A stretch of 64,000 nt of DNA. It comes from Escherichia coli (GTDB lineage Bacteria > Pseudomonadota > Gammaproteobacteria > Enterobacterales > Enterobacteriaceae). This document shows positions 48,538 through 51,500 of this stretch, in pieces (the stretch's first letter is position 1; each line of letters begins with the position of its first letter). The DNA is taken from assembly GCF_003334315.1 (NCBI RefSeq), contig NZ_QOWR01000010.1, one strand, 5' to 3'. The position numbers were made by a program.

Positions 48538-51500
48538 TAATGCTGTGAAATGCCGGATGCGGCGTGAACGCCTTGTCCGGCCTACAAAACCGAAACGTAT
48601 GTAGGCCTGATAAGACGCGTCAGCGTCGCATCAGGCAGTTGTTGTCGGATAAGGCGTGAAAGCCTTATCCGTCCTGGAATGAGGAAGAACCCCATGGATG
48701 TCATTAAAAAGAAACATTGGTGGCAAAGCGACGCGCTGAAATGGTCAGTGCTAGGTCTGCTCGGCCTGCTGGTGGGTTACCTTGTTGTTTTAATGTACGC
48801 ACAAGGGGAATACCTGTTCGCCATTACCACGCTGATATTGAGTTCAGCGGGGCTGTATATTTTCGCCAATCGTAAAGCCTACGCCTGGCGCTATGTTTAC
48901 CCGGGAATGGCTGGAATGGGATTATTCGTCCTCTTCCCTCTGGTCTGCACCATCGCCATTGCCTTCACCAACTACAGCAGCACTAACCAGCTGACTTTTG
49001 AACGTGCGCAGGAAGTGTTGTTAGATCGCTCCTGGCAAGCAGGCAAAACCTATAACTTTGGTCTTTACCCGGCGGGCGATGAGTGGCAACTGGCGCTCAG
49101 CGACGGCGAAACCGGCAAAAATTACCTCTCCGACGCTTTTAAATTTGGCGGCGAGCAAAAACTGCAACTGAAAGAAACGACCGCCCAGCCCGAAGGCGAA
49201 CGCGCGAATCTGCGCGTGATTACCCAGAATCGTCAGGCGCTGAGTGACATTACCGCCATTCTGCCGGATGGCAACAAAGTGATGATGAGCTCCCTGCGCC
49301 AGTTTTCTGGCACGCAGCCGCTCTACACACTCGACGGTGACGGCACGTTGACGAATAATCAGAGCGGCGTGAAATATCGTCCGAATAACCAAATTGGCTT
49401 TTACCAGTCCATTACCGCCGACGGCAACTGGGGTGATGAAAAGCTAAGCCCCGGTTACACCGTGACCACCGGCTGGAAAAACTTTACCCGCGTCTTTACC
49501 GACGAAGGCATTCAGAAACCGTTCCTCGCCATTTTCGTCTGGACCGTGGTGTTCTCGCTGATCACTGTCTTTTTAACGGTGGCGGTCGGCATGGTTCTGG
49601 CGTGTCTGGTGCAGTGGGAAGCGTTGCGCGGCAAAGCGGTCTATCGCGTCCTGCTGATTCTGCCCTACGCGGTGCCATCGTTCATTTCAATCTTGATTTT
49701 CAAAGGGTTGTTTAACCAGAGCTTCGGTGAAATCAACATGATGTTGAGCGCGCTGTTTGGCGTGAAGCCCGCCTGGTTCAGCGATCCGACCACCGCCCGC
49801 ACGATGCTAATTATCGTCAATACCTGGCTGGGTTATCCGTACATGATGATCCTCTGCATGGGCTTGCTGAAAGCGATTCCGGACGATTTGTATGAAGCCT
49901 CAGCAATGGATGGCGCAGGTCCGTTCCAGAACTTCTTTAAGATTACGCTGCCGCTGCTGATTAAACCGCTGACGCCGCTGATGATCGCCAGCTTCGCCTT
50001 TAACTTTAACAACTTCGTGCTGATTCAACTGTTAACCAACGGCGGCCCGGATCGTCTTGGCACGACCACGCCAGCCGGTTATACCGACCTGCTTGTTAAC
50101 TACACCTACCGCATCGCTTTTGAAGGCGGCGGGGGTCAGGACTTCGGTCTGGCGGCAGCAATTGCCACGCTGATCTTCCTGCTGGTGGGTGCGCTGGCGA
50201 TAGTGAACCTGAAAGCCACGCGAATGAAGTTTGATTAAGGGAGATAACAAAAATGGCAATGGTCCAACCGAAATCGCAAAAAGCTCGTTTATTTATTACT
50301 CACCTGCTACTGCTACTTTTTATCGCAGCGATTATGTTCCCGCTGCTGATGGTCGTCGCTATCTCGCTGCGTCAGGGAAACTTTGCGACCGGCAGCCTGA
50401 TCCCGGAGCAAATCTCCTGGGATCACTGGAAACTGGCGTTAGGTTTTAGCGTTGAACAGGCTGATGGTCGCATTACGCCACCGCCATTCCCGGTACTGCT
50501 GTGGCTGTGGAACTCGGTAAAGGTCGCCGGGATTTCCGCGATTGGCATTGTGGCGCTCTCCACCACCTGCGCCTACGCTTTCGCCCGTATGCGCTTTCCA
50601 GGCAAAGCGACGCTGCTGAAAGGAATGCTGATTTTCCAGATGTTCCCGGCAGTACTTTCACTGGTCGCGTTGTATGCGTTGTTTGATCGTCTGGGTGAGT
50701 ACATTCCATTCATTGGCCTGAATACTCACGGCGGCGTAATTTTCGCGTATCTGGGTGGGATTGCGCTGCATGTCTGGACCATCAAAGGCTATTTCGAAAC
50801 CATCGACAGTTCGCTGGAAGAAGCTGCTGCGCTGGATGGTGCGACACCGTGGCAGGCCTTCCGCCTTGTCCTGTTGCCGCTGTCAGTACCGATTCTGGCG
50901 GTGGTATTCATCCTGTCGTTTATCGCTGCCATTACTGAAGTTCCGGTCGCGTCGCTGTTACTGCGTGACGTAAACAGCTACACCCTGGCCGTGGGGATGC
51001 AGCAATACCTCAACCCGCAAAACTACCTGTGGGGTGACTTTGCCGCCGCTGCCGTGATGTCTGCATTACCGATCACCATCGTCTTCTTGCTGGCTCAACG
51101 CTGGCTGGTCAACGGCCTGACGGCAGGTGGTGTGAAAGGTTAAAGATGTTGTTCTGCCAATGTTATGCCGCTGCACCCTCAACTTACGTTATCCCAACTT
51201 GTGACTGTTATTCGGCGCTCCACGGAGCGCCTTTTTTTCTTTCGTCTGCAATCTGAATCGTTCGCCGGTTAATATTTCCATCATAGAGCTTATTATTTTT
51301 ACGTTATTTGTTTTCCCACTTACGATAATTCTCTTTCGTGCTCTGAGTCACGGCAATAGTATTGTTTTTATCAATTTTGGATAATTATCACAATTAAGAT
51401 CACAGAAAAGACATTACGTAAACGCATTGTAAAAAATGATAATTGCCTTAACTGCCTGACAATTCCAACATCAATGCACTGATAAAAGATCAGAATGGTC

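What the first reader, a model, noticed from the sequence alone, without database searches (positions are those of the whole stretch)
51144..51240. Terminator-bounded malG 3' UTR as an sRNA source
Seen in sequence: about 95 nt of non-coding RNA between the malG stop and a strong intrinsic terminator (ggcgctccacggagcgcc + T7). From memory, a 3'UTR-derived regulatory sRNA (MalH) has been described for this operon. Worth confirming that the seed region is intact in this strain.
Basis: partly seen in the sequence, partly recalled or inferred. Interest (0 to 1): 0.25.

Follow-up and report, generated by a model that had tools for sequence, protein, structure and literature searches.

The report
Known MalH small RNA, intact
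The stretch after the maltose-transporter gene malG is the already published and annotated E. coli regulatory small RNA MalH, here base-for-base identical to the K-12 reference, so it is a correct but ordinary observation.

Summary
malG (50253-51143, +) stops at TAA 51141-51143. 95 nt later the transcript ends at a hairpin (51214-51231: 7 bp, 6 G-C, -13.3 kcal/mol) followed by T7 (51232-51238).

RefSeq annotates ncRNA malH (b4807, 103 nt) at this position in MG1655, and window 51120-51260 is 100% identical to MG1655. MalH is therefore window 51136-51238.

MalH was characterised by Iosub et al. 2020 (PMC8081044). It is cut from malEFG mRNA, probably by RNase E, is Hfq-associated, represses ompC and ompA, and indirectly favours LamB.

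My checks agree with that account:
- MalH 28-46 (51163-51181) pairs with the ompC leader at -30.1 kcal/mol; 0 of 60 shuffles did as well.
- It pairs with the 5' end of the ompA leader at -27.2 kcal/mol (1 of 60).
- Across about 110 enterobacterial species, this segment, a second block (51196-51209) and the terminator are conserved, while the 5' part is Escherichia-only.
- The exact 32-mer around the seed occurs in 5179 of 5426 complete E. coli genomes.

Verdict: already known, seed intact, low interest.

The parts
47350..51143 (+). Parental malEFG operon: malE 47350-48540, malF about 48694-50238, malG 50253-51143. MalH is cut from its mRNA.
   Evidence: ORFs. The same layout is annotated as malE, malF and malG in E. 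coli records. malF start at 48694 is inferred from the annotated 1545-nt length; the ORF list gives a longer ATG ORF from 48679.
51136..51238 (+). MalH sRNA, 103 nt by equivalence to RefSeq b4807. It comprises the last 8 nt of malG including the stop codon, the 3'UTR, the terminator hairpin and the U7 tail.
   Evidence: MG1655 annotation, its sequence and a 100% identical alignment. PMC8081044 gives 104 nt by primer extension.
51144..51163 (+). Escherichia-specific 5' segment (MalH 9-28). It forms a weak hairpin in MalH 10-29. It can pair weakly with ompC -25..-3, which may be the published, poorly conserved 'stem 2'.
   Evidence: Mean identity 0.32 across 72 distinct enterobacterial UTRs. Downstream of malG it occurs only in the four Escherichia loci L006, L069, L089 and L101. 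Fold. Duplex of -12.8 kcal/mol. Calling it stem 2 is inference.
51163..51181 (+). Main seed, TTATGCCGCTGCACCCTCA (MalH 28-46). It is single-stranded in the predicted fold and pairs with the ompC and ompA leaders.
   Evidence: ompC -66..-38: 12 bp + 7 bp around a 10-nt bulge, -30.1 kcal/mol, 0 of 60 shuffles as good. ompA -127..-113: -27.2 kcal/mol, 1 of 60. Mean identity 0.80 for MalH 29-50. Unpaired. The exact 32-mer covering MalH 25-56 is in 5179 of 5426 E. coli genomes.
51196..51209 (+). Second conserved block, AACTTGTGACTGTT (MalH 61-74), just 5' of the terminator. It may be a second seed or a U-rich Hfq contact.
   Evidence: Mean identity 0.80. The motif YTGTGAC is present in 80 of 109 loci. 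Possible pairing of CCCAACUUGUG with the ptsH SD region at -16.9 kcal/mol is no better than shuffles. PMC8081044 reports MalH-ptsH chimeras and predicts two seed regions.
51214..51231 (+). Terminator hairpin GGCGCTC-CACG-GAGCGCC, shared by malEFG mRNA and MalH.
   Evidence: -13.3 kcal/mol. Compensatory changes at 4 of 7 pairs across 77 sequences.
51232..51238 (+). U7 tail: the transcript's 3' end and the expected binding site for the proximal face of Hfq.
   Evidence: Sequence. Mean identity 0.88. The Hfq role is established knowledge for this class of sRNA and was not tested here.

Best explanation

Published for MG1655, inferred for this strain: when MalT and CRP-cAMP switch on malEFG (maltose present, glucose exhausted), the polycistronic mRNA ends at the hairpin and U7 tail at 51214-51238. 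Endonucleolytic decay, attributed to RNase E, then leaves a stable 3' fragment of about 103 nt with a 5' monophosphate, protected by the terminator and by Hfq.

Shown here in silico, and published with compensatory mutants for ompC: the unpaired segment 51163-51181 base-pairs with the ompC leader (-66..-38) and with the extreme 5' end of the ompA leader. The published effect is lower mRNA level and translation of both.

Published only, with the mechanism unresolved: MalH lowers MicA and so slightly raises LamB maltoporin. This forms a feed-forward loop in which the maltose operon tunes outer-membrane porin composition.

In this strain the whole RNA is identical to the reference, so all of this should apply unchanged.
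For: Identity: malH b4807 is annotated in NC_000913.3, and the window is 100% identical over MalH plus its flanks.

Literature: PMC8081044 reports a 104-nt RNA that is TEX-sensitive (5'-P), tracks malG levels, gives Hfq CLASH and RIL-seq chimeras with ompC, ompA and ptsH, and was tested with a seed mutant and a compensatory ompC mutant. Also PMC7213987, the review PMC9438474 and a K. pneumoniae orthologue in PMC11347178.

Anatomy: terminator; the seed is unpaired in both the single-sequence fold and the consensus fold.

Pairing: ompC -30.1 kcal/mol against shuffles of -18.6 +/- 2.5 (0 of 60); ompA -27.2 kcal/mol (1 of 60).

Conservation: 97 of 109 loci carry a GCCNCTG seed-like motif and 95 of those also have a terminator. 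Identity is 0.80 in the seed block against 0.32 in the 5' segment and 0.49 in the spacer. Terminator covariation.

Population: the locus is present in 5423 of 5426 complete E. coli genomes, and the exact seed 32-mer in 5179.

No sigma-70-like promoter was found inside the 3' end of malG.
Against: Nothing in the sequence argues against it. The limits are these.

- No expression, processing or Hfq-binding data exist for this particular strain.
- The ompC and ompA leaders of this strain lie outside the window.
- The published phenotypes of the chromosomal seed mutant are small (MicA +30%, lamB -20%, ompC unchanged). The authors note that the mutations also impaired processing and call the biological significance unclear.
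- No perfect RNase E RN|WUU motif lies within 10 nt of the E. coli 5' end.
- Rfam 15 has no MalH model, so there is no independent family match.
- The whole RNA is not unusually structured (z = -0.93).
Confidence: 0.93

Rival explanations
1. The fragment is only a passive decay intermediate. The 3'UTR exists to terminate and stabilise malEFG mRNA, and has no physiologically meaningful trans-acting role.
For: Effects of the chromosomal seed mutant are small and confounded by altered processing, and the authors call the significance unclear. The RNA is not unusually structured. One natural isolate carries IS903B inside it.
Against: An unpaired 19-nt segment and a second block are conserved across genera, while neighbouring UTR sequence is not (0.80 against 0.32-0.49). 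Complementarity to ompC and ompA is well beyond shuffles. Compensatory-mutation reporter data and Hfq chimeras are published. Only 1 of 5426 E. coli genomes was seen with a disruption.
Confidence: 0.05
2. Its main job is to act as a sponge or decoy for other sRNAs (OhsC, possibly MicA-pathway RNAs), or as an activator of ptsHI, rather than as a repressor of porin mRNAs.
For: PMC8081044 reports frequent MalH-OhsC chimeras and MalH-ptsH/ptsI chimeras. Block 2 (51196-51209) is as conserved as the seed, and part of it can pair with the ptsH SD region.
Against: The ptsH pairing energy is no better than shuffles (24 of 60). No MalH-MicA pairing was found by the authors. ompC regulation is supported by compensatory mutants. 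This rival is compatible with the main explanation rather than exclusive of it.
Confidence: 0.1
3. It is an independently transcribed sRNA with its own promoter inside malG, like Vibrio cholerae MicX at the same genomic position.
For: The genomic position matches MicX.
Against: No promoter-like site lies on the + strand between 50200 and 51240. Published MalH is TEX-sensitive and follows malG levels. The Rfam search of the locus, down to E = 10, returned only five sub-threshold matches and MicX was not among them.
Confidence: 0.02
4. The 3'UTR encodes a small protein: ATG 51146, 36 codons, with AAGG 7 nt upstream.
For: The ORF and an SD-like AAGG are present.
Against: The ORF reads through the terminator, so the terminated transcript has no stop codon. 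The ATG and the whole 5' segment exist only in Escherichia.
Confidence: 0.01

Closest known systems
MalH sRNA of E. coli K-12 (b4807; Iosub et al. 2020/21, PMC8081044)
   Same: Identical sequence over all 103 nt and the flanks. Same position at the malG 3' end, same terminator, and same seed complementarity to ompC and ompA.
   Different: Nothing at the sequence level. RefSeq gives 103 nt and the paper 104 nt. Expression in this strain is untested.
RNase E-processed 3'UTR-derived Hfq sRNAs (CpxQ, SroC, NarS, OppZ, as listed in PMC9438474)
   Same: It shares the parental mRNA's terminator, is released by endonucleolytic cleavage near the stop codon, has a conserved unpaired seed in an otherwise variable UTR, and carries a U-tail for Hfq.
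   Different: Different parental operon and targets. MalH expression is unusually transient, peaking in transition phase.
MicX of Vibrio cholerae
   Same: It also lies at the 3' end of malG and regulates outer-membrane protein mRNAs.
   Different: MicX has its own promoter and different targets, and is independent of mal induction. No Rfam match to it appears here. It is an analogue by position, not a demonstrated homologue.
MalH orthologue of Klebsiella pneumoniae SGH10 (malG.psiE.IGR; PMC11347178)
   Same: Same seed core, block 2 and a terminator. K. pneumoniae L112 reads GCCACTGCTATCCTCAACT...TTTGTGACTGTTG. RIL-seq supports it as an sRNA whose binding site overlaps the E. coli one.
   Different: Klebsiella and Raoultella carry an insertion of about 100 nt between the malG stop and the seed, and similarity to E. 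coli MalH is only partial.

Membership tests
MalH sRNA (E. coli b4807) | Sequence matches the annotated or published MalH | tested here: met
   100% identity over 103 nt plus about 20 nt of flank on each side to NC_000913.3 4242531-4242633.
MalH sRNA (E. coli b4807) | Lies at the 3' end of malG, overlapping the stop codon and ending at the operon's Rho-independent terminator | tested here: met
   malG stop at 51141-51143, MalH at 51136-51238, hairpin at 51214-31 plus T7.
MalH sRNA (E. coli b4807) | Seed complementary to the ompC and ompA 5'UTRs | tested here: met
   ompC -30.1 kcal/mol (0 of 60 shuffles) and ompA -27.2 kcal/mol (1 of 60), both using MalH 28-46. The targets were taken from MG1655, because this strain's ompC and ompA are outside the window. 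The ompC leader is at least 99% identical in 4665 of 5426 E. coli genomes.
MalH sRNA (E. coli b4807) | Accumulates as a 5'-monophosphate fragment of about 104 nt on maltose or in transition phase, and is Hfq-bound | not testable with these tools
   Published for MG1655 only (PMC8081044 and PMC7213987).
Processed 3'UTR-derived Hfq-dependent sRNAs | No promoter of its own; released from the parental mRNA | tested here: inconclusive
   No sigma-70-like site on the + strand in 50200-51240, but a consensus scan is weak evidence. No perfect RN|WUU motif at the E. coli 5' end. Other genera have TAAG|TTTCAT directly after the stop codon. Processing has been shown experimentally in MG1655.
Processed 3'UTR-derived Hfq-dependent sRNAs | Conserved single-stranded seed within a variable UTR, plus a terminator hairpin with a U-tail of at least 6-7 | tested here: met
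   Identity profile of 0.32, 0.80, 0.49, 0.80, 0.82 and 0.88 along the RNA. The terminator is the only helix in the consensus fold, with covariation. U7 is present.
MicX (Vibrio cholerae) | Sequence or structure homology to MicX, and an own promoter | tested here: not met
   The Rfam 15 scan of 50900-51600 at E up to 10 returned only five sub-threshold matches, none to MicX. I did not verify separately that Rfam 15 holds a MicX model. No internal promoter-like site. The literature states a different biogenesis and different targets.

The most novel reading that the evidence does not exclude
The second conserved block (AACTTGTGACTGTT, 51196-51209) is as conserved as the characterised seed across about 80 enterobacterial species, yet it has not been dissected by experiment. 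It could be a separate, ancestral seed, for example for the ptsH/ptsI mRNA, which would link maltose uptake to the general PTS proteins. On this reading the Escherichia-only 5' segment (51144-51163) is a recent addition that contributes the extra ompC 'stem 2'. MalH would then be a modular sRNA whose target set changed by replacement of its 5' part.
Probability: 0.3. Interest if true: 0.3.

Novelty: already known. Interest (0 to 1): 0.08.

Why it matters
It matters little as a discovery. MalH is published, reviewed and annotated in the reference genome, and this strain carries the reference allele.

The value is confirmatory. The scan's reader recognised a real 3'UTR-derived sRNA from sequence alone. 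This check also supplies exact window coordinates and a cross-species conservation map: seed and block 2 conserved, 5' segment Escherichia-only, terminator covarying. Someone studying MalH evolution or its unassigned second block could use that map.

Tried and rejected
- **Rfam 15 scan of the locus at E up to 10.** There was no MalH or MicX hit. The only matches were sub-threshold ones, and TarB and mmgR match essentially just the terminator. They were rejected as chance.
- **Published oligo and seed sequences.** Supplementary Table 4 and the figures of PMC8081044 are not held as text. The exact published 'stem 1' and 'stem 2' coordinates could not be read, so I inferred them from the text, pairing and conservation.
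- **Whole-molecule RNAduplex.** Unrestricted interior loops made the energies uninformative: for ompA, 383 of 500 shuffles did as well. I replaced it with a windowed local scan.
- **ptsH pairing.** A 12-bp match to the SD region exists, but it is no better than shuffles, so it stays a hypothesis.
- **Small ORF from ATG 51146.** Rejected because it reads through the terminator and is not conserved.
- **Internal promoter.** None found.
- **RNase E consensus at the 5' end.** No perfect match in E. coli.
- **Alignment A3.** It was selected with a seed regex and a perfect-hairpin filter. Its invariant GCC.CT and its 98.9% pairing are therefore partly circular. The unbiased figures are those, and only the compensatory pattern is taken from A3.

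Full report
**1. What is in the sequence**

The window holds malE (47350-48540), malF (ending at 50238) and malG (50253-51143) on the + strand. E. coli RefSeq records annotate the matching DNA as malG. malG stops at TAA 51141-51143.

A consensus scan finds GGCGCTCCACGGAGCGCC at 51214-51231 (7 pairs, 6 G-C, loop CACG) followed by seven T at 51232-51238. The hairpin alone folds at -13.3 kcal/mol.

No ORF of 40 aa or more overlaps the interval on either strand. xylE follows at 51515-52990, with a promoter-like site at 51269-51296.

**2. Identity**

The reference genome NC_000913.3 annotates an ncRNA, malH (b4807, 'small regulatory RNA MalH'), at 4242531-4242633 on the complement strand. It is 103 nt long and overlaps the last 8 nt of malG. 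Window 51120-51260 aligns to it and its flanks without a single difference. MalH is therefore window 51136-51238.

Rfam 15 has no model that matches. Only sub-threshold hits driven by the terminator appear. The identification rests on the RefSeq annotation and the literature, not on an RNA-family database.

The window itself is an ordinary E. coli chromosome. A 23-kb stretch around the locus is 100% identical to many sequenced strains.

**3. What is published**

Iosub et al. (PMC8081044) describe MalH as follows:
- It carries a 5' monophosphate (TEX-sensitive), tracks malG mRNA and peaks transiently at OD600 of about 1.8-2.4.
- It was found in Hfq CLASH and RIL-seq chimeras with ompC, ompA, ompW, ptsH/ptsI and OhsC.
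- Over-expression lowers ompC, ompA, MicA and rseA.
- A seed mutant loses the ompC and ompA effect, and a compensatory ompC mutant partly restores it.
- ompC shifts out of polysomes.
- A chromosomal double-seed mutant raises MicA by about 30% and lowers lamB by about 20% on maltose, but it also disturbs processing.

The authors call the biological significance unclear and compare MalH with Vibrio MicX. MicX occupies the same position but has its own promoter and different targets.

MalH is listed among RNase E-derived 3' end sRNAs in the review PMC9438474. An orthologue was recognised by RIL-seq in K. pneumoniae (PMC11347178).

**4. Independent checks of the mechanism**

*Fold.* The only strong element is the terminator. 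MalH 30-52 is essentially open, and the RNA as a whole is not unusually stable (z = -0.93).

*Pairing.* I ran a windowed duplex scan against MG1655 leaders:
- For ompC, MalH 28-46 (window 51163-51181, TTATGCCGCTGCACCCTCA) pairs with -66..-38. The duplex is a 12-bp stem and a 7-bp stem around a 10-nt bulge, at -30.1 kcal/mol. Dinucleotide shuffles gave -18.6 +/- 2.5, and 0 of 60 were as good.
- For ompA, the same MalH region pairs with -127..-113, the very 5' end of the leader, at -27.2 kcal/mol (1 of 60).
- For ptsH, a different region (CCCAACUUGUG, MalH 55-68) can pair with the SD region at -16.9 kcal/mol, but this is no better than shuffles (24 of 60).
- The 5' part (MalH 3-24) can pair weakly with ompC -25..-3 at -12.8 kcal/mol. 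From memory, this ompC segment overlaps the MicC site. It may therefore be the published 'stem 2', which the paper says overlaps the MicC site and is poorly conserved.

The figures are not held, so assigning these segments to stems 1 and 2 is my inference.

*Conservation.* A degenerate DNA pattern for the MalG C-terminus retrieved 112 species-level loci, mostly Enterobacteriaceae.
- Of 109 usable loci, 103 have a hairpin plus T-run after malG.
- 97 have a GCCNCTG seed-like motif.
- 77 have the terminator, the seed motif and YTGTGAC together.

In an alignment of 72 distinct short UTRs, chosen only for having a terminator within 135 nt, mean identity to the E. coli base runs as follows:

| MalH positions | Element | Mean identity |
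|---|---|---|
| 9-28 | 5' segment | 0.32 |
| 29-50 | seed block | 0.80 |
| 51-60 | spacer | 0.49 |
| 61-74 | block 2, AACTTGTGACTGTT, window 51196-51209 | 0.80 |
| 79-96 | terminator | 0.82 |
| 97-103 | U-tail | 0.88 |

The E. coli 5' segment follows malG only in the four Escherichia loci. Other genera have GTTTCATCG... there, which supplies a perfect RNase E-type AG|UUU directly after the stop codon. E. coli has no perfect RN|WUU near its mapped 5' end.

The terminator is the only helix in the consensus fold. It shows compensatory changes at 4 of 7 pairs: C-G to G-C in 26, U-A to C-G in 26, and G-C to A-U in 12 of 77 sequences. That alignment was filtered for a seed motif and a perfect hairpin, so only the compensatory pattern carries weight, not the percentage paired.

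*Population.* The locus is present in 5423 of 5426 complete E. coli genomes, with at most one mismatch in 161 nt in 5357 of them. The exact 32-mer covering MalH 25-56 is in 5179. Variants seen include G32A, C52A and G53T. The window carries the majority K-12 allele, so the seed is intact.

**5. Explanation and rivals**

The best explanation (confidence 0.93) is that this is MalH, working as published. It is a stable 3' fragment of malEFG mRNA, bounded by the operon terminator and bound by Hfq. Its open, conserved segment at 51163-51181 represses ompC and ompA by base pairing and indirectly favours LamB.

The steps divide by how well they are supported:
- **Shown here:** identity, anatomy, complementarity beyond chance, and conservation.
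- **Taken from the literature for MG1655:** processing, 5'-P, Hfq association and regulation.
- **Inferred:** that the same holds in this strain.

The rivals:
- **A function-less decay product (0.05).** Modular conservation and the published compensatory mutants argue against it.
- **Mainly a sponge or a ptsHI regulator (0.1).** This is not exclusive of the main explanation.
- **A MicX-like independent transcript (0.02).**
- **A 36-codon ORF from ATG 51146 (0.01).** It reads through the terminator and is Escherichia-only.

**6. Novelty and score**

This is already known. Interest is low, at 0.08.

The most novel reading left open is that block 2 is an uncharacterised second seed or Hfq module, and that the Escherichia-specific 5' segment is a recent add-on. 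I put that at probability about 0.3, with modest interest.

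Noticed in passing
window 51239-53035 (xylE segment); L117 1339: xylE is a presence/absence polymorphism. E. coli strains without xylE run straight from the MalH T-run (window 51238) to the sequence at window 53036, which is the 3' end of the convergent psiE gene. The 1797-bp xylE segment is bounded on both sides by a terminator hairpin plus T-run. Without xylE, the MalH T-run overlaps the psiE stop codon.
   Followed up: partly
L116 3092-4200 (E. coli PCP06102), equivalent to window ~51191: In one of 5426 complete E. coli genomes, an IS903B (IS5-like) element is inserted inside MalH. It lies between the seed and block 2/terminator, making this a natural MalH disruption.
   Followed up: partly
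L037, L091, L094, L097, L104, L107, L109-L112 (Klebsiella/Raoultella); L013, L039, L046, L057, L061, L070, L076 and others: In several genera the malG 3'UTR carries large insertions. Klebsiella and Raoultella have a hairpin-forming element of about 100 nt between the stop codon and the seed. Kosakonia, Phytobacter, Lelliottia and others have elements that, from memory, resemble ERIC/IRU repeats (GTGAATCCCCGGGAGCTTAC...GTAAGTGACTGGGGTGAG). The seed, block 2 and terminator survive in most of them.
   Followed up: no
window 51146-51256: A 36-codon ORF (MLFCQCYAAAPSTYVIPTCDCYSALHGAPFFLSSAI) starts 3 nt after the malG stop, with AAGG 7 nt upstream. It reads through the terminator and its ATG is Escherichia-only, so I judged it chance.
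   Followed up: yes
L089 4962-5038, L101 735-811 (Escherichia sp. E1V33, E. whittamii); L119 (E. coli SCU-316): Natural seed variants exist: GCCTCTACA and GCCACTACA in place of GCCGCTGCA, and G32A in one E. coli strain. Most other genera have GCCACTGCA, which turns the single G-U of the E. coli MalH-ompC duplex into an A-U pair. I could not check whether the ompC leaders co-vary.
   Followed up: no
L005, L009, L012, L024, L051, L095 and others (Citrobacter, Salmonella): Citrobacter and Salmonella carry a small G+C-rich hairpin (GCCCGGNAACGGGC) immediately 5' of the seed, which E. coli lacks. The two Salmonella loci (subsp. arizonae and diarizonae) also have a shortened seed (GCCACTGTCCTCAAC) and a divergent block 2.
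   Followed up: no
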